Below, piece by piece: positions 1 through 57,145 of a stretch of DNA of 64,000 nt. Numbering within the stretch: position 1 is the first letter of the stretch; the number at the start of each line of letters is the position of its first letter. Source of the DNA: Mustelus asterias (lineage: Eukaryota); NCBI RefSeq assembly GCF_964213995.1, contig NC_135825.1, positions 18,600,001-18,664,000 of the forward strand, written 5' to 3'. A program made the position numbers and the translations under genes. Below the pieces are notes generated by a model that was given only the letters and a program-made list of their open reading frames with translations, searched no databases and was not told the DNA's origin.

Positions 1-59
1 AGCTAGCATTTGGCAATGCCATTAAATTTACCGGGGGGGGGTGGTGGTTAAATTCTCTA

Positions 60-720
60 TTGTTGAGATGGACATTCCCTGGCACTTGTGTGACATGAAT
101 GTTAATGCCCCTTCTCAGCTTAAAGCCTGAATTTTGACCAGGTTTTGCTGCATATAGACATGGACTGCTTCTGTATCTGTGGATTAGCGGATATTATTGA
201 ACATTGTGCAATTATCAGAGAGCATTTACATTTCTGACCAGACGATGGAGGTCATTACTGAAATAGTTCTTATATTGAGGTCAACAATTGGGACTGAGAT
301 GATTAACCTCCAACAACCATGACCTTTTTCCTTTTGCCAACTATGAATCCAACTAGTGAAGTGTTTTCCCCATGATTCTCACTGACTTCCATTTGCCATG
401 GAACCTTTATGCCACATTCAGTCAAATGCAGAAGTCACTCTCATCTCCTATGTGTGGACCAAGGATCAAATGAGGATAGAAGCCAACTGACACAGGTGAA
501 ACCCAACCTGAACATCAGTAAGCAGGTTATCATTTTGCGAATGCTGCTTGATGCACAAGGACACCTTCCAACATTTTTCCAATCATCAAATGGAGCTTGA
601 TGGGGCAGTAATTGGCTGCGTTATATTTGTCCTGCTTTTCTTGGATACAATATACCTCAGGAATTGTACATCTTGTCAAGTAGCTGCCAGCATTGTAACT
701 GCACTGGAGCAGTTTGTCTA
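60..720 (-). mobile_element. Old LINE (CR1/L2 group) RT remnant in intron 3; also at about 21495-22160 and 47240-47925
   Basis: Copy-B version translates [22 protein letters not shown], a decayed NYRPISLLS RT motif; similar to 12590-13510. Confidence 0.6.
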
Positions 721-1479
721 GGGGAGCTTTAGTAATTGCAAATTAACCAGATTTTATTTAATAAACCTTGCTGGATGACGTGCATATTGTAGCATTGAAT
801 GAACATCAACAGCAGAGTCCTGTGAACAATAGTTACCTGGTTGTCCTCTCAGGCAGGAAAGTACAAAGTGCAAGGGAGGAGCTTAAAAAGGGGAACAGAA
901 TCATTTCTTATTGGGCTACAATAATGGGCACTAGTGTCAATTTTGTGAGAATATTTAACATGCAATGATTGGTGCTTTTTAGCTGGCTGGAATTATTAAA
1001 ATGCAAATGCCATCTCTCTCATTCTGAGTTACTGAACTGAGTGGAAATTCCAGCTCTCTCCACAGCCCAGTGTTTCCACACAGATGCAGGTTTGTACACA
1101 CTGCGCTTTGTATGACATACATTTACTGCACATAGCAAGTATAATCTAGCTGCACACTAATTAAAATAACTTCTCAGCTCATTCTACCACCTCAAGAGTT
1201 TTTGACACGTTGAAAGTAATTTCTTGCTTATATGGCACAACATAGTGATATCATGAACGTGTCAGGCATTGCCAGACCCGTTAGGCGTTAACTCAGCTCT
1301 GCCAATGGGACACAAATCAGCATAACCCAATTTCACCCAAACATCAGCTATCTGAATGGGCCAGTCATGTTAAATTGCATATAATTCAGCATAATTTTTC
1401 AACACGCAACAATATACAATAAGGACCAACTACACTGAGCATTGCAAGTACGTTCTCGCTATTTATAGAATAATTATAC

Positions 1480-3036
1480 TTGTTTTTAAGGGCGTTGAAT
1501 TGGTGGTAGAGTTTCACATCATCCCATGCATAAGTGGCAATTTTATTGCTTCTCATCCCAGCGAAAGCGTAGATCATATGTGTGCACAAGCAGGGATCCA
1601 CATTGTCTGGCTTGAACTTCCCATCTCCTGGTCTGTACTGGGACCAGTTTGTAAAGTAACAAACCAGTCTGTAGGCAGAGCCTGAGAGTGAGGAGAAAGG
1701 AAAATCAGCACTGAGCCTCTACTCATTACACATCATTCAAAATAGCTCAAAAAGCACAAAGACTCACCCAGTTCCAGGCACGCCAACAAGACCACCACTG
1801 TAATAAAGAATATAGGAGAAGTGTTAAAAATGTGATCAAAATATGCTGAAAGGTTTAAGGCATCACAACAATCTATTATATGAGTGAATAGGAACCATTA
1901 AGAATCCATCCTTGGTCAAACTCTTCTCTGCATCTATTTGCTGCCCTTTGGTGGCATCATCGACAGACATGGGGCCAGGATCTACACATCCATTGACAAC
2001 GCTGGCTTTAACTCATCAACACCTTCCCTTTCTCTGCTTCTGTACTGTCAGGTTTCTTTGCTTGACTATCAGTTTGAGACGAACCATATTTTTTTCCACT
2101 TAATCATTGTAAGACTGAATTTATCATCAACAGCCCCCCCATGCCCAACTTTACCACCAACTCCTTCTTGTTCACTGTCTCAGAACAAACCAGATTGCTT
2201 GCCAGCCAATTGCCCACTAAAAGCCTTATTGGTCATCTCCAATCTCAATGGGATAGAAATTATACTGATCCATCCCAGAGTTGGGGCTTGGGCCTTAACT
2301 CGATCTTTGGGATGAACTGTCAACACCAATTCTGCCTCCACAGCAAGCTCACTCTACAGGAGAAATACATTTTAGATAATGGGGGTGGGGAAGGGAGCTC
2401 ATTCCGAAACAACTTTCTGTCTGCCTTAAGTGAATAAAATGTTCTGGGGCAAATCGCATTGCCATTGCTAATGTGGTTGTATGGCATTCATGTTGCCAAT
2501 TTAACCAGTTAATCCTAGGTAGTTTATTGCTATTGCTGAAAATGCCAGGCAGAGTAATTTCTTACAGTTTTACTGCGATCACATCATAGAATTTAACTCT
2601 ATTTGTTTTCATCAACTTCACCGTAGGTTGAAAACAGAATTGGGAAAACTTGAGAAGTAACAGAGAACGAGGGTTGCTCACAGTCACACTTGTACTTTGA
2701 TGTTATTCAGTGTCACAGGATGAATATTCAGATGCATGTTACTGTCAAAGAGAGTTACGTGGAGGAACAGCAGATAGGAGAATCCAATAGGTTATTCGGA
2801 ATGATGTTGTATTTGATCAAAACATGAACCAGACAACAGGCCACCCAACAGTAAGGCATCTTCAAGTCGCACAGCGTGGGATCAATTCATTTATAATTAG
2901 GCTTGAATTTGACAAACAAGTCTTCACTTTGTTCTATTCCCTGTTTGAATTCTGAGTTCATAAAATAAATTACAATATCAAAGATAATGAAATGGTACAC
3001 AACAGGCTTACCTGTTCCAAGTAGAAGCTTTGCCAT
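1480..3036 (-). CDS. CHIA: Acidic chitinase (CHIA-like, GH18), copy A; partial, gene continues beyond window start
   Basis: Coding exons 3036-3012 (25 nt), 1797-1768 (30 nt), 1681-1480 (202 nt), all GT-AG. They splice to [61 protein letters not shown]..., i.e. a signal peptide plus the GH18 N-terminus, near-identical to copies B and C. Confidence 0.9.
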
Positions 3037-3071
3037 CTTGCAGCTGGTGTGTTGAGGGCACCAACACTGCC

Positions 3072-7690: not shown

Positions 7691-7963
7691 ATGGTATAAC
7701 AATGAGGGCTAGGTATCATGCCAGGGTAGCAGACCCTTCTTAGAAACAGTGCCAAAGAAACTTTTACATCTACTGTCGAGAATGAGAAGGGTTTTGATTT
7801 AACATCACACCTGAAGGACATCACAGCACTCCCTCAGCATACACTGGAATGTCACCCTGGATTTTTCTGCTCAAGCCTCTGGATCAAGACTTGAACCTAC
7901 AAGCTTCTGACTGAGGCAAGAATGCACCTCATGCTCCTCATAGGAATCCTTTACTGGATTCCT

Positions 7964-10900
7964 AAACCAATATGGCCGAAAAGAACACATAGGCTGAGGG
8001 ACAGGAGAATGCACAACCTGGAAGATCCGCCTACGACTGACGAGGAACAGCTACTGTGCATAGCGATGACAAAATCAGAACCCATCAAATTGTCAGTGAG
8101 ACTGAATGAATGTCCAATTTTAATGGCGGTTGACACAGGCGCAGCCGTATCGGTCAAAGAGGAAACAGTGTTTAACAAGATATGCACTGGACTCCAACCC
8201 TTTGCCCTGACCAAAACTTTGGCAAGGCTGAGGACCTATACGGGGGAACTACTGAAAGTGATGGGTACAATCCATGTGCCAGTTACTTATGGGAAACAAT
8301 TAGTTAGGCTACCATTGATGGTATTGGAAGGTTCAGAACCAAGCCTATTAGGGTGAAATTGGCTAAAAGAAATCCAGCTAGTTCGGACAAATATCTTCCA
8401 GCTGGAAAACGATCACCTGAGTGAAGCCCTGAGCAAATCTGGAGGTTTTTCGGGAAGGCTGAGGGACAACCAAAGGAGTTGAGGCAAAATTGCATGTCGA
8501 CCCAGAGGCAGTCCCAAAGTTTTGCAAAGCCCAACCAGTACCATTTGCGTTAAGGGAAAAGAACGACATGGAAATCAAAACATTACAGCACGGAGGAATA
8601 ATAAAACTGGTCCAGTTCGCGAATGGGCAGCACCTGTGGTTCCTGTTTTAAAGCCGGATGGCTTGGTGAGCCTTTGCGGTGATCTCAAACAGAAGATAAA
8701 TCGTTACTCTCAGCGAGACAAATACCCAATCCCCAGGATTGAGGGTCTGTACGCAAAGTTTGGAGAAGGACTCCTATTCACAAAACTGGACATGAGCCAT
8801 GCATACCTGCAACTACGGTGGATGAGGATTCGCAAATATTCGCGACAATAAATACGCTGAAAGGCCTCTTCCAGTGAAAAAGATTACCTTTCGGGGTATC
8901 GTCAGCTTGTGCCATATTTCAGAGGACCATGGACAGCATCCTACAAGGGTTACCACAGGTTGCCATCTACCTGGACGATGTCCTCATTATAGGAAAAACA
9001 AGGGTGGAACATCTGCAGAACCTGGAGCAAGTTCTCAGGAGATTTGATGCAGCAGGGGTTCATTTGAAAAGGGAGAAATGCATCTTTTTAGCACCACAAC
9101 TAACCTACCTCAGGATGAGTCGGGCCTACATCCTTTGGGGGATTGGGTGCGAGCAATAAAATACTCCGTTCAGTCTCACTGACAATTTGATGGGTTCTGA
9201 TTTTGTCATCGCTACCCACAGTAGCTGCTCCTCGTCAGATGTAGGCTCCCACAACCATCCAGGTCGTTTTTAGGACTGGTAACATACTACGGGAAATTCA
9301 TACAGAATACGGCCTCCATTCTGGATCCCCTCCACCAGTTGCTAAAAAAGGGACAAGCTTGGGAATGGTCAGCCCCCCAAACAGGGCCTTCAAGAAAATT
9401 AAACAGAAACTCTCGTCCAAAAATGTATTGGTACATCACGATCCCAAGAAGGAATTAGTGCTCACCTGTGATGAGTCCCCCTCTGGGGATGGCGCAGTCC
9501 TGGCACACAGGTGGCAGGATGGACAGGAACAGCCAATAGCGTATGCCTCCAGGACCCTGGAAATGGCAGAGCGAAGATATGCCCAGATTGAAAAGGAAGG
9601 GCTGGCGATAATCTTCGCAGGTAATAAATTTCACCAGTACTTATACGGGTGAAAATTTACAATTGTAACAGACCATAAACCCTTGTTGGGCCTACGTAAT
9701 GAGGACATAGCGTCAGCCTGGATCTAGCATTGGTCATTATTGCTGGCAGCATATCAGTATCGGTTGGAGCACCGGCCAGGGACTTGAGTGGCAAACGCCG
9801 ATGCCTTAAGCTGGCTACTGTTACTGGACACCCAACCATTGGTCCCAGGATAGAGGAGACCTCTATAGAGGAAACGTTCTGGATACCCTCCCAGTGGACA
9901 CACATATATGCCAGCAGTGAACCATGCCAGTGGATGCAGAAAGACCCTGTATTGGCGAAGGTAAAGCACCTGGTGCTAACAGGGCAGTTGGAAAGACCAG
10001 TCCATCCACAGTTCCACCCATATTGGAGCAAGAGGGAGCAGATCACAGTGGAAGACAGGATACTGCTGTGGGGAGCACGGGTCATCGTCCCAAGACAGGA
10101 TCGTCGGGCCATACTGGCCGAATTAGACCATGGGCACCCCGGTGTATCAAAAATGAAGATGCTGGCCAGGAGCTACGTCAGGTGGCCAGGTCTGGATGCG
10201 GACATAGCGGAACTGGTGGGACAGTGCCAGAAGTGCCAACAAGGGCAGAAGGCGCCACTGGCACCCCTGCTGCACCTGTGGGAATGGCCAGGTAGACCGT
10301 GGCGTGACTCCATGTCGATTTCGCGGGCCGTTTTATGGGCTCCATGTTTTTGGTGATAATAGATGCCCATTCCAAGTGGCGAGATGTCTATAAACTAAAC
10401 TCGGGAAACACAACTGCAATGGTTGAGAAACTGCGCACCTCATTCACAACGCACGGAATCCCAGAGGTAATAGTTTCTGATAATGGTTCAGTGTTCACCG
10501 GCCTAGAGTTCACAGTATTTATAAAATCAAATGGGATCCAGCACATCAAGATGGCACCTTTTCAACCGGCATCAAATGGGTTAGCGGAGAGAGCAGTCCA
10601 GACGTTAAAGGCCGGGTTGAAAAAACAGCCAACGGCCTCAGTAGAGACTAAACTCTCACGGTGGTTATTTGACAAAAGAACAACTATGGGAACCGTGCCA
10701 GCAGAGTTGCTGATGGGCAGACGACCAAACTCCAGACTGAACCTGTTGTTTCCAAACCTGGGAGGAAAGCTGGAAAGACACCAGGAAGCCCAATGCAGGG
10801 GCCATAACAACACTCGCCGAGAGAGGCACTTCGATCCCGGGGAGAATGTTTGGGTCAACAATTATGCAAATGGACCCGCCTGTGTAACAGGGACAGTCGA

Positions 10901-11443
10901 GGCCAGGACAGGACCGGTATCCCCCCAAGTACACGTGGGCGAGGCAGTGGTAAGGAAACATCTGGACCGGGTTCGAGCCTCAATCTCTCCACCCACTCCT
11001 GAGCTGAATCCGCCCTGCAGTGCTCAGGATGAGCAGAGTCCCACTCAACAGGCCAGTACCGTCTCTCCAGCACCCTTGATAGGGACCTCAGTGTCCGCAA
11101 TGGGCACAGGGGACAAAGCTGCAGCGATTCCCTTAACACCAGAAGTGGACAGGAACTAGGCCTCCAGCGTTCACTGCGGAAGAGACGGGCACCAAACTGT
11201 TAAGCCCTGCCGACATCAGAGGTCAAGTTGGAGTATCCTGACTCGGCGCTCAAGCCGAGAAAAAGACTCCTGAGGAAAGCTAACCGAGGGGATTCCACAG
11301 ACTTTGGGGGGGAAGAGTGTGACAACTTCAGCCAGGCTAATGAGGTTGGCTTGCGAGATTATGAACTACCTGATGAGTCCGAATTGATGGTTCAATCAGG
11401 GAGCCTCATGCTCCCTATATAAAGGTGTGTCAGTCTTTCAGCC
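7964..11443 (+). mobile_element. Degraded Ty3/Gypsy LTR retrotransposon, 5'-deleted copy
   Basis: Fragmented pol in Gypsy order: protease VDTGAAVS, RT YLDD, RNase H LTCDESP, integrase HGHPG..C..C, SDNGSVF, SNGLAERAVQ. Polypurine tract followed by a truncated 3' LTR at 11318-11443. Many stops and frameshifts. Confidence 0.92.
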
Positions 11444-11444
11444 A

Positions 11445-24465: not shown

Positions 24466-24500
24466 CTTGCAGCTGGTGTGTTGTGGGCACCAACACTGCC

Positions 24501-29510: not shown

Positions 29511-29602
29511 TAGAAAAATGACTTTGGGGTAAATTTTTTGTCTTCACCGTTCGGCTTGGTAATTTGATGAGTAAAGTTACATGTCTTTTCCAGGAACAAA
29601 CT

Positions 29603-35516: not shown

Positions 35517-36751
35517 ACGAGAGAGCGAGAGCGAGAGCGAGAGCAAGAAAGCGAGAAATGCTATCGTCTCATGGCATCTGACCCATACATTCTCCATCCC
35601 ACCACCAAAGAACATAACTCTCGACCTGGCATAGCGCTAAAGTGCATCAGCGAGAATGCAGACAACAAGGTCTCTATCCTGATGGGGCAGCTCAAAAATG
35701 GTGCCAGTCATAATATTGAAGAGGGCGAGTGGTGTCTGTGAGCTGTGTACTGCTAAAGCTTGACCTGAAATACGGGCCCACAAGCTTGGGGCTTTGTGTT
35801 CCAAAGAATAAACTTTTGTCTCCAGACTGTGCAACTAAATCTAGCTCTGGCTATTAAACTGATATGCTTAACTCCTCACGGTACGGTCAGTTAGCCGCTC
35901 TGGCAACAATGATCTTCTCAGTGGTACACAGCTGATTCTTGAGAAATCTGCAATTAGCTTTTCAAGAAATTCCCTTGGGGGCAGTGTCATTCTTCCAGGT
36001 CTTTAATGCTGTGCAGTTAAGCCAAACAGTTCAACTAAACGAAACCAAACAGTTAATACTAAATGCCCTCTCACAGCTAAAGTTTAAAATTTATTTATTA
36101 GTGTCACAAGTAGGCTTACATTGACACTGCAGTGAAGTTACTGTGAAAATCCTGTACCTGAGAGTCAGAGTTCACAGAGAAGTGGATATGAACTTCCAGT
36201 CCAGTAATCCCCTCTGGCTTCTGTCTATATCTGTCTCTCACGCAATAAATTAATATGCTATTTGAATTATTAATTTCACTTTTCTTGTGAAAACAAATGT
36301 CAGTAGGATGCAGGATACCAAAACTCAGTTTGGTCCATTTTCATTCCAGAAATTCTCTCCTTGTGACATGCAAAAACGACTGTAGATATCGGAGAGCTGT
36401 GCTTTGAGTTGGTGTCAAAGTTTCAAATGTCTGCTTCTCCCTCAAACTTTAAGGTTGGAAATAAATTAATGCAAATGAAGTCCTTTCAAACAAAGTGGAT
36501 TTTTTTTCAATAGGTTCAGGCAACACTAGCTACACCAGTATTTATTGCCCATCTCTAACTGCCTTTTAGAAAGTGGTAGTGAGCTCTCTTCTTGAACTGC
36601 TGCAGTCCATGTGGTGTAGGTAAACCCGCAGTGCTGTTAGGGAGGGCGTATTGGGATTCTGACCCAACAACGGTGAAGGAATTTTGACACAGCTCCAAGT
36701 CAGGATGGTGTGTGGCTTAGAGAGGAATTTGCAGGTGGCAGTGTCCCCACA

Positions 36752-37085
36752 CATAGAATCATAGAATCCCGACAGTGCAGAAGCAGGCCATTTGGCCCAT
36801 TGAGTCTGCACCAACTCTCTGACAGGCCCCGTCCTATCCCCATCACCCCAGACATTTACCATGGCCAATCCTACCAACCTACACATCCCCTGACACTAAG
36901 GGGCAATTTAGCATGGTCAATCAACCTAACCATACATCACTGGACTGTGGGAGGAAACCGGAGCACCCGGAGGAAATCCCCGCAGACATGGGGAGAAGAT
37001 GCAAACTCCACAGACAGTCACCCAAGGCCGAAGTTGAACCCGGGTCCCTGGAGCTGTGAGCGAGTAGAGCTAACCACTGTGACAC
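36752..37085 (-). mobile_element. HE1/V-SINE nested in an old LINE 3' end
   Basis: Full SINE on the minus strand with (CATAGAAT)n tail. Confidence 0.85.
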
Positions 37086-39424: not shown

Positions 39425-39430
39425 TTTATT
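39425..39430 (-). terminator. Probable polyadenylation signal of copy C
   Basis: AATAAA on the minus strand about 155 nt after the stop. Confidence 0.6.
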
Positions 39431-39585
39431 AAATTTTACCCATCAGTTTTGAAATTCTAATGAACTAGGACTTCTATTGAAGGCCACGCTGGCATTTTAC
39501 ACCACCTCAACATTATTAATTTCCACAGGATGGCGACTTTGAATTGTTATTTAGGTCCTGAGCAAACTTACCTTCTGATTTCCCA

Positions 39586-42500: not shown

Positions 42501-45500
42501 GCTGCTGGCCTCACCAGCGGGAATAGGTCCCGCCCCCTGATTCTTATTGAGATTCACGCTAGGGCTCTCTGTGAGTGTGGGACATTCATTATGAAAATGC
42601 CGCTAAAAAAACCAGCGGGATTTACTCCATTTTTTAGGCAAATTCGGCACTTAGAATGATTCCTGGCAAAGATCTTATGGAATGAAGAAGGTTACTGTTC
42701 TCAATACCTCATAATAGGCCAAGAACCCAGCCTGTCTGGTGTACTGTCCAGGTGGTCCAGCCCCTGTTGCTGGGGCTCCGACTCCATGGGCGGATGTTCT
42801 CAGTCTGAAGGTGTGGCCATATGTAGCGAATCCAGCGTTCAGTTTGTCTGCAGGAGCTCCCATCTTTAACCAGTATTTCATTGCAAAGTTCTACAGAAAA
42901 AAAATACATGAAAGGATCTGCTGGACGGTCTTTGCATCCACTTGGTTGAAGATGTTTACCATTTGGAAATATTAAATGTAACTGGATTCTATTTCCGAAC
43001 ACTTACCACATTAAACTCAAGATTGAGGGCGCTCTTGGAATTTGGGAGAGCATAAAGTGGGCTGTTTTCTCCAGTGGCGTGACTCCAGGGTCCAAAGAAA
43101 TCATATGTCATCACATTGAAAAAGTCCACAATCCTGTGTGAGGAGAGATCTGAGTTACACTGACATCCAGGAGTCTTCGCCCACAATGTGTCTCCGAGTC
43201 CTCATGTGGGGGTTGAACCCACAATCATCCAATTCAGAGCCAAGTGCTACCACTGAGCCACTGCTAAGACCATTGCATGTTTCTACAGCGTACTAAAATA
43301 TTTGAGTCTTTTGTATTTCAACCTCCAATCTTGCTCATGCTGTAAAATGGAGTGGTAACCTAATGAAATGTCCTGGTCTGCCTGAAGAACAAAGCAGCAG
43401 AATTTATAACAGATATATTTACATCAAAGCTCAGTTATGGAGAATAGGGCCTTTACCTTCAGGAATCTGAATAAGATGATAAAATCCAAGAACAATAGAC
43501 TACATAATAATTGATGAGGGGGAATCTAGCAATGTAGGGCGGCACGGTAGCACAGTGGTTAGCACTGCTGCTTCACAGCTACAGGGACCTGGGTTCGATT
43601 CCCGGCTTGGGTCACTGTCTGTGTGGAGTTTGCACATTCTCCTCGTGTCTGTGTGGGTTTCCTCCGGGTGCTCCGGTTTCCTCCCACAGTCCAAAGATGT
43701 GCTGGTTAGGTTGATTGGCCCTGCTAAAATTGCCCTTAATGTCTTGAGATGTGTAGGTTAGAGGGATTAGTGGGTAAATATGTAGGGACATGGGGGTAGG
43801 GCCTGGGTGGGATTGTGGTCGGTGCAGACTCGATGGGCCGAATGGCCTCTTTCTGTGCTGTAGGGTTTGTATAGAAAAAAATCTTAATGCGTGGACACCT
43901 TTTGCATAACTTAGACCTACTTGGAGCAAGATGTTCTCCTCGTGGGGAGTCCAAAGGTAATGGTCATAATTTGAGGATAAAGGGTAAAGTTTTTAGGACT
44001 GAGGTGAGGAGAAATTTCTTCATGCAGCGAGTGGCGAACCTGTGGAATTCACAACCACAGAAAATAGTGGAGGCCAAAATGTTGTGTGATTTCAAGAAGA
44101 AATAGCTCTTGGGCTAAAGTAATCAAGGGATATGGGGGGAAGGTGGGATTAGGTTATTGGATTTGATGATAAGCCATGATCAAAAGGAATGGCGGGCCAG
44201 GCTCGAAGGGCCAAATGGCCAACTCCTGCTTCAATCTTCTATATTTCTATACATTCTCCTTGTTTCCTCAACAACGTCTATCCTTCAGTCTTCACTCGAA
44301 AAACTTCAGATCATCTTATTGCTTAAGTGGGGTTAATTCATCAGAGGTCGCGAAGGCCAACCAGGCTGCAGCTGTCATGCAATCCAAACAATGACACACT
44401 GTTGGTGTGTGTCTGCCGACTAAACCTGAAGACATGTTTAAAGGAATCCATCTCGCCACTGACAAGGCCATTGCTTAGCTCTGTGACTATGTGCAGGTTA
44501 AAAAAAGTTAAATCTCATTGTTTCTGCAATCTTGGTGCAGGTTTCTTGGTTGCTGCGTTACGCTGCCACAGAGTCTACATTCCAAAATACTTTGTCGACT
44601 GTGAATATTTTAGGGACATCCCAAAGTTGTGAAATTCTAATTCTGTCTTCTATGACTCGCTTTCTGGTTTTCACATTCTGCTTTCATTGAAATAAAGAAG
44701 CATTTGTACAGCTTTCTCAACATTACCCAAGTTGTGAATACAAGATAACTGGGATATTCCCAGTCAATATCCAAAATATTAAACTCAAAATCATGCAAGA
44801 AGCTGAGCTCAGGCTTTATGAATTTTTGACAAAACACTCAGTCTGCAAATTGATCCCCTCTCTCTTCATCTCCCCTTTAATGTGTCCCTCTCTCCTTCAC
44901 CTTGCCACCTCTGCACCTTTCTCTACCCTCCACAATTACCCTCTCACCCTCACCTTGCTTCAAAAACTGGCAGAATTAGATGTAATACTCAATGATTTTC
45001 CATCCCTTTGCCAGAATGCAGTTCGACTGGCATCACGCGATGAACCAATATTGAAGGCTTAGCTTTGAGAGTCAACACTGATTATCAATTAACTGTGCAA
45101 AGATTTAAAGACGAGCCCAGTTCTAACCTCACCCGATGACCAGACGGAAGCATTGTGAGTTACAAGCAGGAATGAGAACAATATTACCAAACAATCTTAG
45201 GAACTCTAACATTGCCTCAGCTAGATTCAATCAACTCAATATTAATTGGAGATTGAACCGAGGGCTGTCTAGATCTGTACGGCTCAGCTGCTAACTGGTT
45301 AAACTTGCTAAATTGTGGGACTAACAGGGATACTCACTGTCCAAGCTGAGGAACCTCATAGCCAGTATCAATGTTATTCTTCCCACCAGCAACTGCAAGT
45401 GACAACAGCAGTCTTGGTTTTCCGGTGCTTTTCCCCTCAGCTTCAAAGGCTGCCATCAGTTCCTGAAAGTTGAAAATGAATAAAGTTTCATTTAGCACAA

Positions 45501-48500
45501 ACAATAAAGAGTTTCAGATGCACAGAAAAGCATTTTCTGGCTTCATAAAATCTCCATGACCATGTGTCAGACAATAGTCTGCCCGTCCAAGGGTACAGTC
45601 AAAGGGAGGATCAAGTTCTAATTGGACTCAAATTAAGACATACAGAATCAAAGCATTAACTCTCTGGGCACAACCTTCACAGCCACTCATGCCGTGTGCC
45701 CATTGCAGCGAGATCGGAGAATTTGGTGCCCAGCCAAATCTCCACTCACTGCAGTGCGATGGGAAAATTCCACCAGCATGAACAGCAAAAACATTCTGGC
45801 CTCAGTTTCTTTCTCCACAGATGCTGCCAGACCTGCTGAGACTTTTCAGCATTTTCTCACATTTTTATTAAATGGAGTCTAAATGGATCACTGTTATTGC
45901 ACAGTAGTTGGAACAGACATCTTTTATCACCTTGATTAATGAGGTTGCTATCAAACTAATTTGCTGTATATAAATTCATAAGTTTCATGTTGGAATATTC
46001 CACTTCTATGTTTCACAATTTGTGCAACAGTGTATTTTACATCTGTTTCAATAATAGTTGGTTAGTTTACATATCAGCACTGATCTAACTGAATGGCCAA
46101 ACAGCCTGTAAGAGGTCAATGGCCCATGCCTGTCCCTATGTTCCTCGTCCTTGATGAGGACGTTGAGAGCAAGTTTAAATTTACAAACAGGATTGAAAGA
46201 TGTGTTATTTTAGCTGCTAGACTAAGCATCCTGTTAAATACATTTGTGCCTACCTGTGCCAGCACGGTGTAGAGATGCTTGTCACGTGGGGGACTTCCTC
46301 TTGAGCCAGGATATTCCCAGTCAATATCCAAACCATCAAAACCGTAACCGCGCAGGAAGCTAATCGCAGACTTAATGAAAATCTGGCGGTTTCCTGGTGA
46401 GGAAACCATGGCGGTGTATCTAGAGGAGAGTAGAATGTTAACCAAGGTCAGAAGAGGTGTAGTTAGCTCTCAGTAATTGCCAGCTGACCCTTTCAGAATT
46501 TCATACCTTTTAAAATTTCAATACATAGCAGAAAACTAATTATAATTTACAAAAAGATATTTGCGACATGTTGTAATTTTGCTGCTCTCGACAATCAGTG
46601 CAATCAATCTTGAATGGTTTTATTAACTACAAATGTGTCTTTCTGAAAATGAGGTGCTTTCGTTTCAGACAGGGATCCTGTTAGTAATATTGTTTGAATT
46701 ATATTTTATAGAAAGCTCAGCATAGTCATAGTACATTCATTCGCAGATAAGATATATCGTTGTATAAAACTACACTTATCATTCCAAATTTAGCTCTTTG
46801 ACCCAGTCTCTTTTACATCATGAGCAATAGGAAAAGAAGCACTCTTCACCCAATATTTTTTTTCAAACTTTCAACTTACTTCGCAGTTCCAAAGTTCCAG
46901 CCTCCGACGGATAGGAGTGTCTTAAGGTCTTTATTTCTATTGCAAAATTGAACACATTGTTCATTTTGAAAAAAAGAACACAAGCAAATGCATCATTATT
47001 GTCTGAACCTTTCTATTGTTTTCTTCATTTAGTGCGAAATCTTGGTTAAGCAGAAATACCTCAATGCAGAACATACATTTCACAACATGGTGTGCCATAG
47101 GAATGAGGATATGGTTCATGTGGGCATGGCCCACAATCAATAAAACCATCTCTTTATTTTATTCTTTCATCGGTGTGGCATTTTTTGGCAAAGCTAGCAT
47201 TTGGCAATGCCATTAAATTTACCGGGGTGGGGGTGGTTAAATTCTCTATTGTTGAGATGGACATTCCCTGGCACTTGTGTGACATGAATGCTAATGCCCC
47301 TAGTCAGCTTAAAGCCTGAATTTTGACCATGTTTTGCTGCATATAGACATGGACTGCTTCTGTACCTGTGGATTATTGGATATTTTTGAACATTGTGCAA
47401 TTATCAGAGAGCATCTACATTTCTGACCTGTTGACGGAGATCATTACTGAAGTAGTTCTGATGTTGAGGTCAACGATTCTAACCTGAGGGGTCCTGGGAC
47501 TGAGATGATTAACCTCCAACAACCATGACCATTTTCCTTTTGCCAACTATGAAGCCAACCTAATGAAGAGATTTCCCCCTTATTCTCACTGACTTCCATC
47601 TCCCATGGAACCTTTATGCCACATTCAGTCAAACGCAGAAGTCACTCTCATCTCGTATGTGTGGACCAAGGATCAAATGAGGATAGAAGCCAACTGAAAC
47701 TGGTGAAACCCAACCTGAACATCAGTAAGCAGGTTATCATTTTGCGAATGCTGCTTGATGCACAAGGACACCTTCCAACATTTTTAAATCATCAAATGGA
47801 GCTTGATGGGGCAGTAATTGGCTGCGTTATATTTGTCCTGCTTTTCTTGGATACAATATACCTCAGGAATTTTACATCTTGTCAAGTAGCTGCCAGCATT
47901 GTAACTGCACTGGAGCAGTTTGTCTAGGGGAGCTTTAGTAATTGCAAATTAACCAGATTTCTTTTAATAAACCTTGCTGGATGACGTGCATATTGTAGCA
48001 TTGAATGAACATCAACAGCAGAGTCCTGTGAACAATAGTTACCTGGTTGTCCTCTAAGACAAGAAAGTACAAAGGGCAAGGGACGAGTTTAAAAACAGGG
48101 GAACGAAATCACTTAGGCTACAATAATGGGACCTCGTGTCAATTTTGTGAGAATATTTAACATGCAATGATTGGTGCTTTTTAGCTGGCTGAAATTATTA
48201 AAATGCAAATACCATCTCACTCACTCTGAGTTGCTGAGCTGAGTGGAAATTCCAGCTCTCTCCACAGCCCAGTGTTTCCACACAGATGGAGGTTTCTACA
48301 CACTGCACTTTGTATGACATACATTTACTGCATGTAGCAAATATAATCTAGCTGCACACTAATTAAAATAACTTCTCAGCTCATTCTACCACCTCAAGAG
48401 TTTTCGACACGTTGAAAATATTTTCTTGCTTGTATGGCACAACATGGTGATATCATGAACGTGTCAGGCATTGCCAGACCCGTTAGGCGTTAACCCATCT

Positions 48501-50051
48501 CTGCCAATGGGACACAAATCAGCATAACCCAATTTCACCCAAACATCAGCTATCTGAATGGGCCAGTCATGTTAAATTGCATATAATTCAGCATAATCTT
48601 TCAACGTGCAACAATATACAATAAGGACCAACTACACTTAGCATTGCAAGTACATCCTGGTTATTTATAGAATAATTATACTTGTTTTTAAGGGCGTTGA
48701 ATTCGTGGTAGAGTTTCACATCATCCCATGCATAAGTGGCAATTTTATTGCTTCTCATCCCAGCGAAAGCGTAGATCATATGTGTGCACAAGCAGGGATC
48801 CACATTGTGCGGCTTGAACTTCCCTGCTCCTGGTCTGTACTGGGACCAGTTTGTAAAGTAACAAACCAGTCTGTAGGCAGAGCCTGAGAGTGAAGAGAAA
48901 GGAAAATCAGCACTGAGCCTCTACTCATTACACATCATTCAAAATAGCTCAAAAAGCACAAAGACTCACCCAGTTCCAGGCACGCCAACAAGACCACCAC
49001 TGTAATAAAGAATATAGGAGAAGTGTTAAAAATGTGATCAAAATATGCTGGAAGGTTCAAGACATCACAACAATCTATTATATGAGTGAATAGGAACCAT
49101 TAAGAATCCATCCTTGGTCAAACTCTTCTCCACATCTATTTGCTGCCCTTTGGTGAGATCATCGACAGACATGGGGTCAGGATCTACACATCAATTGACA
49201 ACGCTGGCTTTAACTCATCAACACCTTCCCTTTCTCTGCTTCTCTACTGTCAGATTTCTTTGCCCGACTATCAGTTTGAGACGAACCATATTTTTTCCAC
49301 TTAAGCATTGCAAGTCTGTATTTATCATCGATAGTCCCCCATGCCCAACTTTACCACCAACTCCTTCTTGTTCACTGTCTCAGAACAAACCAGATTGCTT
49401 GCCAGCCAATTGCCCACTAAAAGCCTTATTGGTCATCTCCAATCTCAATGGGATAGAAATTATACTGATCCATCCCAGAATTGGGACTTGGGCCTTAACT
49501 CGATCTTTGGGACTGTCGACATCCATTCTGCCTCCACAGCAAACTCACTCTACAGGAGAAGTACATTTTAGATAATGGGGGAGGGGAAGGGAACTCATTC
49601 CTAAACAATTTTCTGCCTGCCCTCAAGCGAATAAAATGTTCTAGGGCAAATCGCATTGCCATGGCCAATGTGGTTGTATGGCATTCATTTTGCCAATTTA
49701 ACCAGTTAATCCTAGGTAGTTAATTGCTATTGCTGAAAATGCCAGGCAGAGTAATTTCTTACAGTTTTACTGCGATCACATCATAGAATTTAACTCTATT
49801 TGTTTTCATCAACTTCACCATAGGTTAAAAACAGAATTGGGAAAACTTGAGAAGTAACAGAGAACCAGGATTGCTCACAGTCACACTTGTACTTTGATGT
49901 TATTCTGTGTCACAACACAAATATTCAGATGCATGTTACTGTCAAAGAGAGTTATGTGTCGGAACAGCAGATAGGAGAATCCAATTATGATATCAAAGTT
50001 AATGAAATGGTACACAACAGGCTTACGTGTTCCAAGTAGAAGCTTTGCCAT
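39586..50051 (-). CDS. CHIA: Acidic chitinase (CHIA-like), copy C, 532 aa if the GC donor of intron 10 is used
   Basis: 11 exons: 50051-50027, 48999-48970, 48883-48682, 46936-46880, 46419-46254, 45462-45338, 43133-43007, 42890-42708, 41076-40960, 40416-40278, 40013-39586 (1599 nt). No stops or frameshifts, catalytic DGLDIDWE intact, ends CECCNWP*. Intron 10 begins GC rather than GT. Confidence 0.9.
39733..39957 (-). repeat. Coding Gly/Ser repeat (75 codons), linker of copy C
   Basis: 225 nt of GGN/AGY codons, in frame, 132 nt longer than in copy B. Confidence 0.95.
43537..43875 (+). mobile_element. Young HE1/V-SINE specific to intron 6 of copy C
   Basis: Absent at 18211 in copy B; AATCT duplicated at 43523-43527 and 43880-43884. 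Confidence 0.92.
44751..44831 (-). pseudogene. Decayed duplicate of catalytic exon 5 inside intron 6 of copy C
   Basis: Reads [27 protein letters not shown]; 59/81 nt identical to exon 5 by hand count, including a 24-nt exact run. Confidence 0.8.
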
Positions 50052-50086
50052 CTTGCAGCTGGTGTGTTGAGGGCACCAACACTGCC

Positions 50087-50235
50087 TTTTATACACTGAG
50101 TTTATCATTAGTGATAAATAATTCCAAACATCATTAACCTTATCACTGGGAAAGGGTCAGTCACAAGGAAAAATAACAGTTCTTATTTTGTCTTTATATA
50201 TATTTTCACCTTCTCGTGAATAACAACTTATCTCC
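50087..50235 (-). promoter_or_regulatory. Core promoter of copy C: TATA box and GATA-site cluster
   Basis: TATAAAA at 50093-50087; inverted GATA pair 50101-50118; TTATC near 50140 and 50228. Confidence 0.7.
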
Positions 50236-50355
50236 TCTACAATGTCATCTAGATTGTCGACCTTCATTGTAACCCCAGATTTGTTTTTGCGCGAGAAACA
50301 GGCTAGGAAATTGATGGGAAGAGTTGAGAGGCCTGTGTTCTTTTACTGTGGCATT

Positions 50356-51262
50356 AGGAACAAAGAACAAGGAAAAGTACAGCGCAGGAACAGGCGCAAC
50401 GACCCTCCAAGCCCGTGTCGATCATGATGCCCAAACTGAAAAAAAACTTCTGCCCTTATTCGGTCCCTATCCCTCTATTTCCTCCCTATTCATGTACCCA
50501 TCCAGATGCCTCTTAAATGTTGCTAACATGCCTGTTTCCACCACCTCCTCGGGCAGGCACCCAGGCACCCACCACTCTCTGAAAAACTTTCTCTACACAT
50601 CTCCCTTAAACTTCCCCCTCTCACATTGAATCTGTCCCCCTTGTAATTGACACTTCCACCATTGGAAAAAGCCTCTGACTATCCACCCTATCTATGCCTC
50701 TCATAATTTTGTAGACCTGTATCAGGTCTCCCCTCAGCCTTCATCTTTCCGATGAAAAGAATCCTAGTTGATTCAACCCCTCCTCATAGCCAACACCCTC
50801 GAGACCAGGCAACATCATGATGAACCTTCTTTGCACTTTCTCCAAAGCTTCCACGTCCTTCTGATAATGTGGTGACCAGAACTGCACGCAATACTCCAAA
50901 TGTGGCCTAAACAAGGTTTTACATAGTTGCAATATGATTTCCCAACTCCTGTACTCAGTGCACTGGCTGATGAAAACAAGCATGCCATATGCCTTCTTAA
51001 TCACCTTGGCCACCTGTGTTGCCACTTTTAGGGAACTGTGGACCTGCACGCCCAGATCCTCTATATGTTAATGTTCCTAAGGGTTCTGCCATTTACAGTA
51101 TTATTCATATCTAAATTTGATCCTCCAAAATGCATCACCTCTTATTTGTCTGGATTAAACTCCATCTGTCTTTTATGTGCCTAAGTCTCCAATCTATCTA
51201 CATCCTGTTGTATCCTCTGACAATCCTCAGCACTATCAGCAACTCCACTAATCTTAGTGTTA
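50356..51262 (-). mobile_element. CR1-type LINE upstream of copy C
   Basis: RPHLEYCVQFWSPHYQKD; same insertion site as 3342 and 24772. Confidence 0.88.
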
Positions 51263-54200
51263 TCCTTCCACAGCATCTTCCAAACCAGTGCCAGTTAGAA
51301 AGACAAGACACATGGGGACACCACCTCCAGCAAGTTCCTCTCTAAGTCACACATAATCCTGATTTAGAATAATACCGCTGTTCTTTCACTGTCACTGGGA
51401 AACTCCCTCCCAATAATTCATGTGGGGGTAACTCCACTACGTGGACTGAAAAGTAAACATAAGCTTGGAGAAAGAATGAGATGTTGCTTAGCAACCTGGG
51501 CCCACTTTAGGAAAGACAGATCTTGTGATAATGTTTAACTGAATTAATAGCAATTGGAGCTTGGAAAGTAGACAGTGCATCTAAGGTAGATGGTTGCATG
51601 GTGGCACAGTGGTTAGCACTGCTAGCTCACAAGCCTGGGTTCAATCCCAGCCTTGAATGACTGTCTGTGTGGAGGTTGCACATTCTGTCTCTGCGTGGGG
51701 GTTTCCTGCGGGTGCTCTAATTTCCTCCCATAGTCAAAAAATGTGCAGGTTAGGTGGATTGGCCATGCAAAGTTGTCCCTTGGTATCCAAAGTGTGTAGT
51801 TTAGGGAGATTAGCGAGGTAAATAAGTGGGGTTACGAGGATAGAGCCTGGGAAAGATGCTCTGTTGGAGAGTCAGTGCAGGCTTGATGGCCTGAAAGGCC
51901 TCCTTCTTCACTATAGGGATTTTATAATCAGTGAACAGCTCTCAGTTCGGTTGGAAGAAAAGCCATATAATGGAGTAATGAACAGGAAAGCAAATGCTAG
52001 AAACTAAAGCATAACTCATTCTAGAAAGCAAGTAGAGGAGAGATAGGTTTTCATGAAGATTGAAGTCAAAAGGAAAATAGAAACTGTAATTTGTGCAGGG
52101 TACTTTTCATTGAAGTTACAGACAGAATTGAGAAGTACGGTCTTGGGTGTCATTAGCTAGGGAAAAGCCAGAGCTATCTGAAACAATTGTAATGTTGGTG
52201 TCCTTATTTCCAGTCTTACGAACAATAGTATTCAATTGGTGGCTAGATCTGACAGTTTCCATGAAAGCTTGAATGTACATGGCTATTCAAGGCAAAAGAA
52301 TCTTGAAAGAAGAGTTGGAAAACCTGGAAGTGGATCCTTGCTGAAAACAGCTGAGGGAAAAGTTGTTTGATAGAAAATTCCAAGGTGTGTCTGTTCCACA
52401 ACAATGTGATAATAACCAGATCATCTGTTTTGGTCTCTCATTTAAGGAAAGGTATACTGACATTGGAGGCAGTCCAGGGAAGGTCATGAGGTTAATCTTG
52501 GGTATGGAGGGATTTTCTTATGAGGAGAGGTTGAGTAGGCTTAGCCTGTACTCACTGAAGTTTAGAAGAATGAAAGACTATCTTATTGATAAATATAGGA
52601 TTCTCAGGGGGCTTGACACGGTAGATGCAGAGAGGCTGTTTCCCCTTGTTGGAGAGTTAAGGTCCAGAGGGCATAATCTCAGAGTAAGGGGGCACCCATT
52701 TAAAATAGAGATGAGGAAAGATTTCTTCTCTCAGAGGGCAGTGAATCTGTGGAATTCTTTACTGCAGAGGGCTGTAGAGGCTGGGTCATTAAGTATGGTT
52801 AAGGCTGAGACAGACAGCTTTCAAATCAGTAAGGGAATCAAGGGTTATGGGAATAAGATGGGAAAGTAGAGTTGAGGATTATCTCAGTAATGATCTCACT
52901 GAATGGTGGAGTAGACTCAATGGGCCAAATGGTCTATTTCTGTTCCTACATTGTATGATCTTATGATGAGGGCTAGGTATTGTGCCAGGACAGCAGACTC
53001 TTCTTAGAAACAGTGCCATGGAAACTTTTACATCTACTTGTAGAGCATGAGAAGGGTTTTGGATTAATATCACCCTGGGTTTTTCTGCTCAAGCCTCTGG
53101 ATCAAGGCTTGAACCCACAAGCTTCTGACTGAGGCAAGAATGTTCCTCGCTGCGCCATGGTTGACATCCAAAAGAGATTGCTAAAAATACTCAGCATGTC
53201 AGGCAGCATCTGTGGAGGCAGGAAAAACAGAATTAACATTGCTGGTCACTGACCTCCTACCACTATTGGCAAAGGTCAGAGATGCAACAGTTTTTAAGCA
53301 GTTAAGTCAAAGGTAGCATGGGGAACAGGGGAGAGGATAAAAGGAAAGGCTTGTGGTAAGGTGGAAGCCAGGAATGATAAAATACAAAGTGGAATGGGAA
53401 TCGAGCAAGTAAAATACAAGGTTAAAAAAAAACAGAAAATGCTGGAAAACCTCAGCAGGTCTGACACCATCTGTGGAGAGAGAATGGAGTCAATGTTTCA
53501 AGGGGTCATTCAGATTCCAGCATCCACAGTTTTTAGCATTTAAAAAGCAGGGTTAGATGAGCTATAAATGGCAACGCCCCAAACATTACCAGCACCTACT
53601 GTCTGAAAAAAAAATCTATTTATTTTGCAAGCTGCAGTTGTACTAAATCGTTTGAATTGTTTGAGTAACTCTAAATAAGTTATTAAAGGATTCGCTGTCT
53701 TTGTTGGGCTTAGTGACATAGTGATTTATTTGTATCTATAAGAGATCAGCCACTTGAGCATATTTGAAAGCTTTGAATGGGTTGGATGAATAGGAGCTTT
53801 TTTCATGATAACTATGTAGGATGGGAGCTGTATTATGTATTTAGAAGATGAATTTGTTTCACCTCCACATGGGTTCTGAGGTATTCCCATGGTAGATAGT
53901 CGGTTAGTGGCTATGGATGTGGCATGGAGAGTATGATGGCCATTATGTATCAGCGAGGTCATGAGTGGGCATTGATTGGCATGCAGGGTATGATTGCTCA
54001 TGGCGGGGTGGGTGTGGGAGCTTGAATCAGTAGTAAATTAGCACGGGGAGAGTGAGTGGCCATCGCGTTGGTGGGGTGTGACAAGTGTCAAAGCCAGCAG
54101 GCTTTGACACTTGTCCACCCCAATGGCAGCCTACCCGCCACTTCCAAAGTTAACAGGCTCAACTCAATCCCATTGGCATGTCCCCGCAGTGAATATTGTG

Positions 54201-57145
54201 TGCATCAAGTACATTTACCAAGGCAGATTGGTCTTCACTTCTGGTTGCCTCGGAAAAACAGCCAGCATAATCAAGAACCCCATGCACCCAGGACATATCC
54301 TCTTCCACCTTCTTCCATCGGGATAAAGATACAAAAATCTGAGAACACACACCAACAGCTTCTTCCCTGCTGTCATCAGACTTCTGAATGGTCCTATCAT
54401 AGATTAAGCTAATCCTTCTCTACACCCTACCTGTAACTGCAGCACTATATTCTGCACCCTCTCCTTTCCTTCTCCCCTATGTACTCTATGAACGGTATAT
54501 TTTGTCTGTATAGCGCGCAAGAAACAATACTTTTCACTGTATCCCAATACACGTGACAATAATAAATCAAATCTAATCTAATCAGGTCCGGCAGCGAGTA
54601 GTAGTACTTAGATGGAGTCTGATCAACAGTTCAGACTTAAATATATTCAAATACTAGGTCGACAGTAGATTTCAAACTGGTAGGTCAGGCCACAGGCTAA
54701 GGTTTCTCAAAGATGACTGCATACTAAGAACATCAGTTGAACTTGCTGCATCAAGGAATTATAAGATGATGCCAAGACCACCAAAAGCAGTACCCTGGAA
54801 AAAAAATCCCTCACACAACACAGGGGCAGAAATTTTGCCTCTGAAATATAGCTGAACAGAACTTGAGTGTCAAGAAACACTTCACACTTGACACTGAAGA
54901 CCCACCTGATGCCTTTGATGTGGTTTTAAAAGTCAACTATTTGAAGAGAACAGACTGATTACAATTAGCGGAGAAATACGCATATGCAGTAAACATGTTT
55001 AAAGTGTTACTAGTTCTTATCAGGGTTTCTGATATTCGGTTCAATCTATACATAAACATATTAAGAGAACCAAATGTAATATTCTGGTTTGATATTTAAA
55101 GTGGAATACCTTTATGAAAGGCACGGTGGTACAGTGGTTAGCACTGCCACCTCACAGCGCCAGGGACCTGGGTTCAGTTCCAGCCTTAGGTGACTGTGTG
55201 GTGTTTACACATTCTACCTGTGTCTGCATGGGTTTCCTCTGGGTGCTCCGGTTTCCTCCCATACTCCAAAGATGTGCGGGTTAGGTTGATTGGCTATGCC
55301 AAATTGCCCCCAGGGGATTAGCAGGGTAAATTCATGTGGTTACAGGGAGAGAGCCTGGGTGGGATTGTTGTCAGTGCAAGCTTGATGGGCCGAATGGTCT
55401 CCTTCTGCACTGTCGGGATTCCATGATTCTATGATTTAGAAAAATGACCTTGGGTAAATCTTTTGTCTTCGCCTTTCGGCTTGGTAATTTGATGAGTAAA
55501 GTTACATGTATTTTCCAGGAACAGTCTGATAACAAGGTCCTTCATGGCAGGCTGGTGCAAAAGCTTATATCTCACAGGATCAGGGGTGAACTAGCTAGAT
55601 GGATTCAGAACTGGCTTGGCCATAAAAGGTGGAAGGGTGTTTTTCTGAATGGAGGTCTGTAACTAGTGGTGTTCTGCAGGGATCAGTGCTGGGACCACGT
55701 AGGTGGTCTGATTAGCAAGTTTGCAGATGATACTAAGATTGATGGAGTTGTGGATAGTGATGAAGATTGTCAGAGAATGCAGCAGGATACAGATAAACTG
55801 GAAAATTGGTCGGAGAAATGGCAGGTGGAATTTAATTTGGACAAATATGAGGTGATGCATTTTGGTAGATCCAATTCATGTGGGTGCTATAAAATAAATG
55901 GCAGAACAATCAGGAGCATATAGACACAGAGAGATTTGGGAGTACAGGTCCACAGATCCTTAAAAGTGGCAGCAGAGGTGGAAAAGGTGGTGAAGAAAGA
56001 TATGGCATACTTGCCTTCATCAGACAGGGCATCGAGTATAAAAGTTGGCAAATTAATTAACAGTTGCATAAAACGTTGGTTAGGCCACATTTGGAATACC
56101 GTGTCCAATTCTGGTCACCACACGATCAGAAGAACGCGGCAGCTTTGGAGAGAGTGCAGAAAAGGTTTACCAGGATGTTGCCTGGTATGGAGGGTATCAG
56201 CTATGAGCTATGGCATTGTTCTCCCTGGAAAGGTGGAGGCTGAGGGGCAACCTGATAGAAGTTCATAAAATTATGAGAGGTATAGATAGGATGAACAGAT
56301 GGAAGCTTTTTCCAAGGGCAGAAATGACAATTACAAGGGGGCACAAATTCAAGATAAGGGGGGAAAGGTTCAGTGGAGATATGCAGTGAAAGTTCTTTAC
56401 ATAGAGAGTGGTGGGGCCTGGAATGCACTGCCAAGTGAAGTGGTTGAGGCAGATATGTTAGACACATTTAAGACTTATCTTGATAGGCATATGAACAAAC
56501 AAGAGGGATATAAGCGGTTGGTTAGATAGGTAAACGTGATCGATGCAGGCTTGCAGGGCCGAAGGGCCTGTTCCTGTGCTGTACTTTTCTTTGTTCTTTG
56601 TTTTTTCCAAGTAATGCAATGGAAGACAATGGTGGTGGCAGTTTTTATCTTTGTCCACTGATTATATGAATGGTTCAGCAAATCTTGCCATGGATCAAAC
56701 AACATTGAAAAACAGACAACATTATTCTGGCCTACAAATTCACTCAGCCTAATATATGACTTAGGCCAGAGGCGAGACAACTTGCTGTACCAGATATATG
56801 CTCAAACAGGTGCACGCTTATGCTTGCTTACAAAGGCTTTTGTTTCAAGCCAAGCAAAACAATTTGACTTAGCTCCTGCTTAAAAATAGAAAATGCTGGA
56901 AATACTCCACACGTTTGTTTCCCTCCCCACATATGCTGTCAGACCTGCTGAGTAGTTCCTGCTTCTTCTGTTTCAATTGCCAACATCCACATATCCGGAC
57001 CCTGAAGTAACCAGCATGGAATCTTTGGGCTAAATGGCCTCCTCTGCACTGTAGGGATATGTTTCTATGAGCAATGATCCTGTGACTGCCAGACGTACAA
57101 TTGTGTAATAAAAATAGCATTCACCATCCCTTTCCAATGTACTAG

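What the first reader, a model, noticed from the sequence alone, without database searches (positions are those of the whole stretch)
1..56600. Recent tandem expansion of acidic chitinase genes in a shark (at least three copies)
Seen: three head-to-tail copies whose introns, promoters and flanking TEs align almost base for base, with copy-specific insertions and deletions. B and C differ at about 19 residues plus the linker, while catalytic exons 4-6 have identical protein sequence. Known: CHIA copy number tracks chitin-rich diets in mammals. Inference: a dosage or subfunctionalising expansion in a crustacean-eating elasmobranch; the array continues past position 1.
Basis: partly seen in the sequence, partly recalled or inferred. 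Interest (0 to 1): 0.7.

Follow-up and report, generated by a model that had tools for sequence, protein, structure and literature searches.

The report
Hybrid gene in shark chitinase array
A crustacean-eating shark carries twelve intact head-to-tail copies of a chitin-digesting enzyme gene, and the middle one of the three in this window is a front-from-one, back-from-the-other hybrid of its neighbours, likely made by unequal crossing-over; the extra copies would plausibly help digest crab shell, but expression, activity and the diet link are untested.

Summary
B (24465-14501) and C (50051-39586) are intact 11-exon GH18+CBM14 genes differing at 19 residues plus linker; A continues left. Named proteins identical to these genes are Mustelus asterias. 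The three end a 12-gene tandem run inside a 1.35-Mb cluster of 27 GH18 loci (14 CHIA-type). They are not false duplicates: they differ by about 3-6%, against 0.1% for a likely artefactual duplicate nearby, and a congener's protein is 2 residues from B but 17 from C. New here: B is a hybrid, A-like upstream to about intron 3 and C-like beyond (shared-derived sites 9:2 versus 6:51, p=4.6e-6), 3.5% from each parent, the anti-Lepore pattern of unequal crossing-over. 'Acidic' is not established: His208 is Asn and predicted pI is 8.7-8.9, though His269 is kept. The array is layered, not simply recent: older copies have catshark orthologues, and catsharks, a skate and a sawshark also have several copies (the scan noted a sawshark array before). 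dN/dS is 0.30-0.53, with no sign of positive selection. The diet link is plausible but untested. A new member of a known kind.

The parts
39586..50051 (-). Chitinase copy C: 11 coding exons (50051-50027, 48999-48970, 48883-48682, 46936-46880, 46419-46254, 45462-45338, 43133-43007, 42890-42708, 41076-40960, 40416-40278, 40013-39586), 532 aa, 91-residue Gly/Ser linker
   Evidence: GH18 and CBM14 Pfam hits
14501..24465 (-). Chitinase copy B, 488 aa, 47-residue linker; hybrid gene, A-like in its 5' part and C-like in its 3' part; 2 residues (outside the linker repeat) from a Mustelus manazo chitinase
1..3036 (-). 5' part of copy A (exons 1-3 at 3036-3012, 1797-1768, 1681-1480); the gene ends at G000:C25:18593865, 459 aa, 18-residue linker
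21180..23231 (.). Inferred crossover zone in B (exon 2 to intron 3); best single change-point at 21627/21628
   Evidence: 0 of 1000 site permutations and 0 of 1000 block permutations reach the score
3037..14500 (.). B-A spacer: a copy of the same ancestral spacer as the C-B spacer (A-type upstream flank joined to C-type downstream flank)
7930..7964 (.). Joint of a 4.9-kb deletion in the B-A spacer (equivalent to 26747 joined to 31650), with about 33 unrelated bases between
7964..11443 (+). 5'-truncated, broken Gypsy-type LTR retrotransposon remnant, co-duplicated with B (integrase core hit); right end read across from the C-side copy
24466..39585 (.). C-B spacer
30597..35516 (+). Broken Gypsy-type LTR retrotransposon (5' LTR starts TG near 30597; 3' LTR cut short at about 35516, followed by a GAGAGC microsatellite). 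It fills the seam of the older A/C duplication: homology to C's upstream flank ends at 30596 (=56529) and homology to A's downstream flank starts at 35563
50052..56529 (-). Upstream flank of C; TATAAAA at 50093-50087 and GATA-like motifs, shared with A and B (motif names recalled); homology to B's flank ends at 56529
40272..40277 (-). Intron-10 donor of C reads GCAAAT; A, B, D and E have GT here
39743..39951 (-). Gly/Ser linker tandem repeat of C (18-nt period, 11.3 copies); the shorter one of B is at 14661-14740

Best explanation
The window holds the end of a real tandem array of intact CHIA-clade chitinase genes in which copy B is a hybrid of copies A and C, likely made by unequal crossing-over, and the array likely raises or varies gut chitin digestion in a crustacean-eating shark. 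Steps: (1) inferred: a single A/B/C ancestor duplicated into A and C, with the seam at a Gypsy element (distal flanks about 8% apart). (2) Shown as a pattern, inferred as an event: misaligned A and C recombined near intron 3, giving C - [A 5' / C 3'] - A, with both spacers copied from one. (3) Inferred: later gene conversion homogenised parts (exon 4 to exon 6 only 1-2% apart), a 4.9-kb deletion shortened the B-A spacer, and mobile elements and linker repeats changed per copy. (4) Shown: the coding sequences are under purifying selection. (5) Inferred and untested: the copies are secreted stomach chitinases kept mainly for dosage.
For: Hybrid: B sides with A upstream through intron 1 (C odd at 115 sites, A at 41) and with C from exon 4 down (A odd 313, C odd 111; Fisher p=3.6e-25). 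Polarised with D/E, shared-derived AB:BC is 9:2 versus 6:51 (p=4.6e-6). B-A upstream 57/1619 = 3.5% and B-C downstream 224/6324 = 3.5%. Both spacers align end to end apart from the deletion. Real paralogues: the M. manazo protein is 2 residues from B, 17 from C and 38 from A; a 6.4-kb duplicate across an N gap in gene H differs at only 6 of 6420 bases; in run X1 a contig 12 letters from B in intron 1 has depth 17.4, like contigs of distant paralogues (17.5-28.4), while stretches shared by three copies have 48.6-55.1. Function: D136/D138/E140, W31, W99, W218, R145, D213 and His269-equivalent kept in A-E; dN/dS 0.30-0.53 among A/B/C; the A-E clade holds a blue shark chitinase, and a blue shark chitinase gene was cloned from stomach (PMC4728518, passage); M. 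asterias eats 99% crustaceans by index of relative importance (PMC7592766, passage).
Against: No expression or activity data for any copy. The switch is a zone, not a point: exon 2 to intron 3 is mixed (39/41/48; polarised there AB 2, BC 6), so conversion blurs it, and long conversion tracts alone could mimic part of the pattern. Only 11 polarised AB/BC sites lie in the upstream part. Contig depth is not a copy number, X1 may be the assembly's own sample, and I assigned the 17.4 contig to C by its distance, not by alignment. B and C proteins did not appear in the protein lists. The GC donor may impair C. Diet does not track the lower-bound counts cleanly (whale shark 2, horn shark 1).
Confidence: 0.72

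Rival explanations
1. Neutral birth-and-death: the copies arise because the locus is prone to unequal crossing-over and are kept by weak purifying selection and conversion, with no dietary advantage.
For: Young duplicates recur across elasmobranchs of different diets (Amblyraja 4, Pristiophorus 4 near-identical entries, Scyliorhinus torazame). F/G (about 96%) and D/E (about 94%) are further young block duplications, one carrying a partial gene. dN/dS of 0.5-0.6 among many paralogues is relaxed. This is compatible with the hybrid mechanism and differs only on why copies are kept.
Against: All 12 tandem genes have open frames and the catalytic acids, including pairs at dS 0.2-0.4. The crustacean specialist has the most CHIA-type entries of any species in the same protein lists (about 10, against at most 7 distinct sequences).
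Confidence: 0.35
2. Subfunctionalisation: copies differ in pH optimum, product pattern or reach on crystalline chitin.
For: Residue 104 is Ala in B, C and the M. manazo protein only, Ser in A and mostly Gln in other elasmobranch sequences; A104/H269 is the pH-2 combination in chicken Chia2 (PMC13029220, Results read). Linkers are 18, 47 and 91 residues. F-L lost 15 nt of exon 5 with R145, and F, G, H have Trp218 to Gly.
Against: In chicken, changing residue 104 alone had little effect. The apparent pile-up of B-C changes in residues 268-337 (8 of 12, p=0.0004) is matched by 7 synonymous changes there, so it reflects an older, unconverted segment. No pair has dN/dS above 1. Branch-site tests were not run.
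Confidence: 0.3
3. False duplication: haplotypes of one or two loci were assembled in tandem.
For: The assembly does hold likely false duplicates: 6.4 kb at 99.8% across a 200-N gap in gene H, and an exon-8 hit on small contig C3552 with the same score as one on C25.
Against: No N gap in the window. Copies differ 30- to 50-fold more than that duplicate and carry private insertions. B is closer to another species' protein than to C. The hybrid pattern needs three separate loci.
Confidence: 0.03
4. Non-digestive role (immune, mucosal, or turnover of the shark's own chitin).
For: Chitin is reported in chondrichthyan ampullae of Lorenzini (reference title seen in PMC10234404). The cluster also holds loci that lack the catalytic Glu. 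Basic pI is unlike mammalian gastric CHIA.
Against: The CHIA clade is gastric in chicken, and a blue shark gene was cloned from stomach.
Confidence: 0.1

Closest known systems
Vertebrate CHIA / acidic mammalian chitinase (GH18 + CBM14)
   Same: Best PDB match of exon 3 (8fg5, E 4.5e-30); 11 coding exons; DXXDXDXE; R145 and His269-equivalent; sister to bony-vertebrate CHIA (SH-aLRT 98.3); a BTG-family gene lies about 130 kb from the cluster's end, as BTG2 flanks avian Chia.
   Different: Asn at 208, predicted pI 8.7-8.9 against 4.9-5.1 for two mammals and chicken; an elasmobranch-only radiation (SH-aLRT 100), so not one-to-one orthologues of mammalian CHIA1-5.
Shark chitinases of Prionace glauca (BAP90827), Mustelus manazo (BAS47231) and Heterodontus japonicus (BAW98094)
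   Same: Same lineage as A-E; the M. manazo protein is the B orthologue (2 differences); the blue shark protein groups weakly with D/E (76.9).
   Different: Held as single sequences. The five-copy A-E clade, the 12-gene run and B's hybrid origin did not turn up in my paper searches.
Avian Chia tandem arrays (chicken Chia1-3; up to 8 in tufted duck) and placental CHIA1-5
   Same: Lineage-specific tandem expansion at the same locus; copy number tracks invertebrate diet in mammals (PMC5955627, passages; PMC13029220).
   Different: Larger count (14 CHIA-type). Mammalian variation is mostly loss from five ancestral copies, whereas here there are fresh gains. No pH data here.
Anti-Lepore-type hybrid genes (haemoglobin delta - beta/delta - beta; recalled, no call)
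   Same: The middle gene of three has the 5' part of the downstream gene and the 3' part of the upstream gene, with a duplicated spacer.
   Different: Here the hybrid is old (3.5% from each parent), shared with a congener and eroded by conversion, rather than a rare human allele.

Membership tests
CHIA clade of GH18 | GH18 catalytic domain with DXXDXDXE in exon 5 | tested here: met
   PF00704 E 1.2e-14 on exon 5 of C; D136, D138, E140 in 14 of 14 CHIA-type genes
CHIA clade of GH18 | 11 coding exons with canonical splice sites (PMC5955627) | tested here: met
   exception: GC donor at intron 10 of C
CHIA clade of GH18 | C-terminal CBM14 with six cysteines | tested here: met
   PF01607 E 4.6e-12 for C; six Cys visible in A, B, C
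CHIA clade of GH18 | Groups with vertebrate CHIA rather than CHIT1/CHI3L1 | tested here: met
   SH-aLRT 98.3 (IQ-TREE fast mode, 71 rows, 35 rows dropped as redundant or fragmentary); FastTree 0.99 on 98 rows. The CHIT1/CHI3L1 outgroup was one fused hamster model.
CHIA clade of GH18 | Locus between BTG2 and PIFO/ATP5PB | tested here: inconclusive
   BTG-family hit at C25:17.508 Mb and ATP5PB-family hits at 20.03 Mb bracket the cluster; the BTG hit was not typed to BTG2 and PIFO was not searched
Acid-active AMCase (R145/H208/H269 triad) | His208 | tested here: not met
   Asn in all 14; triad named in PMC11182645, passage
Acid-active AMCase (R145/H208/H269 triad) | Arg145 and His269 | tested here: met
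   A-E have both; F-L lack R145
Acid-active AMCase (R145/H208/H269 triad) | Acidic isoelectric point (recalled as part of the name) | tested here: not met
   Predicted pI 8.74-8.94 for A, B, C
Acid-active AMCase (R145/H208/H269 triad) | Activity optimum at acid pH and stomach expression | not testable with these tools
   Needs enzyme assays and stomach RNA
Hybrid gene from unequal crossing-over | Middle copy has the 5' part of the downstream gene and the 3' part of the upstream gene | tested here: met
Hybrid gene from unequal crossing-over | Both spacers derive from one spacer, and both halves are equally old | tested here: met
   3.5% and 3.5%
Hybrid gene from unequal crossing-over | A single sharp crossover point; a reciprocal or ancestral two-gene haplotype | tested here: inconclusive
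   2-kb mixed zone; no population or relative assembly could be read

The most novel reading that the evidence does not exclude
The smooth-hound has built the largest CHIA set among the vertebrate cases I read about (14 genes) into a divided crab-shell toolkit by repeated unequal crossing-over: young copies converged on the acid-tuned A104/H269 pair, linkers range from 18 to 91 residues, C may shed its binding domain through a weak GC donor, and older copies remodelled the substrate cleft. Elasmobranchs would then be an independent, gain-driven test of the chitinase-diet rule.
Probability: 0.25. Interest if true: 0.65.

Novelty: new member of a known kind. Interest (0 to 1): 0.42.

Why it matters
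The link between chitinase copy number and diet rests on mammals, where it is mostly gene loss, and on birds. A crustacean specialist shark with 14 CHIA-type genes, several gained in its own lineage, makes the rule testable in a third group with diagnostic variants ready for RNA assignment. The hybrid copy shows how such arrays grow, and it warns that single-gene trees and single cloned cDNAs of shark chitinases undercount and blur them.

Tried and rejected
No RNA holder was listed. Runs X3 and X4 gave low-depth contigs that added nothing; the first lay was swamped by repeats, and no listed piece bridged the 7930-7964 joint. In three other coded organisms (X5, X9, X11; about 4-7% from B) only one long A/B/C-like intron-1 contig was listed for X5 and for X9 and short pieces for X11; contigs show presence only, so I drew no copy number. 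Positive selection on residues 268-337 was rejected because synonymous changes cluster there too. The idea that the 677-bp match downstream of A is a solo LTR, which would make LTR-LTR recombination the cause of the A/C duplication, was rejected: the LTR ends at about 35516 and the match starts at 35563. Whether the break fell inside the 3' LTR or a later deletion removed the true seam cannot be told. No structure was predicted: solved AMCase structures cover the fold. Paper searches for a shark chitinase array (listings only) found none; the library lacks most subscription journals, including the shark cDNA papers, and no supplements were read. The place look-up of earlier findings was empty. 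No absolute age was computed.

Full report
Observation. Self-alignment shows three collinear direct copies and no N in the window. Gene bodies align at 92-98%; the distal B-versus-C upstream flank only at 84-88%.

Context. The window is G000:C25:18600001-18664000. Proteins named Mustelus asterias are 100% identical to my models of A, E and H. Leftward lie nine more genes in the same orientation (D-L), making 12 in 380 kb, all with open frames; exon 1 of D, J and L was found in a wider search. An exon-8 search gave 28 hits, 27 on C25 between 17.64 and 18.97 Mb and one on a small contig. I fetched that span except 120 kb in three stretches. Fourteen loci are CHIA-type (the 12 plus two at 17.64 and 17.69 Mb). 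Thirteen are other GH18 genes, several without the catalytic Glu; they were read from exon hits only. A BTG-family gene (17.51 Mb) and an ATP5PB-family gene (20.03 Mb) bracket the cluster.

Real or artefact. The M. manazo chitinase BAS47231 differs from B at 2 residues, from C at 17 and from A at 38, so B and C are not alleles, and B predates that species split. The assembly supplies its own control: a 6.4-kb duplicate on both sides of a 200-N gap in gene H has 6 mismatches, against about 3-6% between A, B and C. Contig depths in run X1 fit three copies (17.4 for a probable C-only contig, 35.5 for a stretch shared by B and C, 48.6-55.1 where all three agree). Depth of contigs is not a copy number and X1 may be the source sample, so this is weak support.

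How it arose. Projected on B, sites where one copy is the odd one out switch sides. Upstream through intron 1, C is odd 115 times and A 41; exon 2 to intron 3 is mixed (A 39, B 41, C 48); from exon 4 through the downstream flank A is odd 313 times and C 111. A change-point scan puts the switch at 21627, and no site or block permutation of 1000 each reached the score. With D/E as outgroup, shared-derived sites are AB 9, BC 2, AC 4 upstream and AB 6, BC 51, AC 11 from exon 4 on, so faster change in one copy does not explain it. B is 3.5% from A upstream and 3.5% from C downstream. Both spacers are copies of one spacer, A-type upstream flank joined to C-type downstream flank, with a Gypsy remnant in each and a 4.9-kb deletion in the B-A one. 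This is what one unequal crossover between tandem C and A predicts (the anti-Lepore arrangement, recalled). The older A/C duplication (distal flanks 8.2% apart) has its seam at the Gypsy element, 30597-35516; whether the element caused it is open. Conversion is inferred from A-C distances of 1-2% over intron 4 to exon 6 against 10-14% in introns 8-9, from exon 6 being identical in A and D, and from the two C-type residues in the B-like M. manazo protein, which could also be a cloning chimera.

What the proteins are. They fall in an elasmobranch radiation (SH-aLRT 100) that is sister to bony-vertebrate CHIA (98.3 together). A-E share a lineage with blue shark, M. manazo and horn shark sequences. 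Catalytic and cleft residues are intact in A-E, and dN/dS is 0.30 (B-C), 0.39 (A-B) and 0.53 (A-C). Of the AMCase triad R145/H208/H269 (PMC11182645, passage), H208 is Asn, and predicted pI is 8.7-8.9 against 4.9-5.1 for mammal and chicken CHIA. B and C carry A104 with H269, the pH-2 pair of chicken Chia2, though residue 104 alone did little there (PMC13029220, abstract and Results read). Acid activity is therefore open.

Diet. M. asterias eats almost only crustaceans (PMC7592766, passage), and CHIA number tracks invertebrate diet in mammals (PMC5955627, passages). Lower bounds from protein lists (top 120 of 838 hits, 15 of 27 members in one cluster): M. asterias about 10 of its 14 (F, G and the 17.64-Mb gene assigned by length and similarity; B, C, J and N not seen), Scyliorhinus canicula 7, S. 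torazame 7 distinct sequences, Heptranchias 5, Pristiophorus 5 plus a fragment, Amblyraja 4, Cetorhinus 3, Chiloscyllium punctatum 3, Carcharodon 2, Rhincodon 2, Heterodontus francisci 1. Some entries may be isoforms. H, K and L have catshark orthologues and F/G a catshark sister group, so much of the array is old; A/B/C, D/E and F/G are the young layer. White shark fits the diet idea; whale shark and horn shark, recalled as crustacean eaters, do not; and the high counts sit in one order. The link is unresolved.

Novelty. Tandem CHIA expansion is known in birds (up to 8) and mammals (5), and unequal crossing-over is textbook. Six paper searches found no account of a shark array (listings only; PMC4728518, PMC10234404 and PMC11433245 read as passages). 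Verdict: real, larger and older than first read, with a well-supported hybrid origin for B; function and diet link inferred. Interest 0.42.

Noticed in passing
window 40277-40272 (-): C's intron-10 donor is GCAAAT where its paralogues have GT. Read-through would add about 20 residues and stop, giving a chitinase without CBM14. It could also be an assembly error.
   Followed up: partly
G000:C25:18397700-18411700 (L020, L021): Exons 4-7 of gene H are doubled at 99.8% across a 200-N gap, probably an assembly overlap.
   Followed up: yes
G000:C25:18410000-18495000 (L011-L019): F/G block duplication at about 96% that also copied the 5' end of H, leaving an orphan exon 3 at 18458903.
   Followed up: partly
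G000:C25:18271000-18495000: Genes F-L share a 15-nt deletion in exon 5 that removes R145, and F, G and H have Gly for Trp218; some catshark, basking and white shark proteins lack R145 too.
   Followed up: partly
G000:C25:17741000-18192000 and 18895000-18940000: Several GH18 loci lack the catalytic Glu (DxDxR and similar), so may be chitinase-like lectins; loci at 18.70 and 18.92 Mb have two or more CBM14 hits.
   Followed up: no
window 44751-44828 and 19084-19161 (-): A degenerate copy of part of exon 5 lies in intron 6 of B and C; similar pieces lie in intron 6 of I and K.
   Followed up: partly
G000:C25:18665400-18680000 (L040, L092): Broken exon-9 and exon-10 fragments of a chitinase inside a 1.4-kb-period degenerate repeat just right of the window.
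   Followed up: no
window 62849-63993: 99.1% identical to an inverted copy about 150 kb to the left, probably a young mobile element.
   Followed up: no
G000:C3552:1528-1704: Exon-8 hit on a small contig with the same score as C25:18137859, possibly a leftover haplotig.
   Followed up: no
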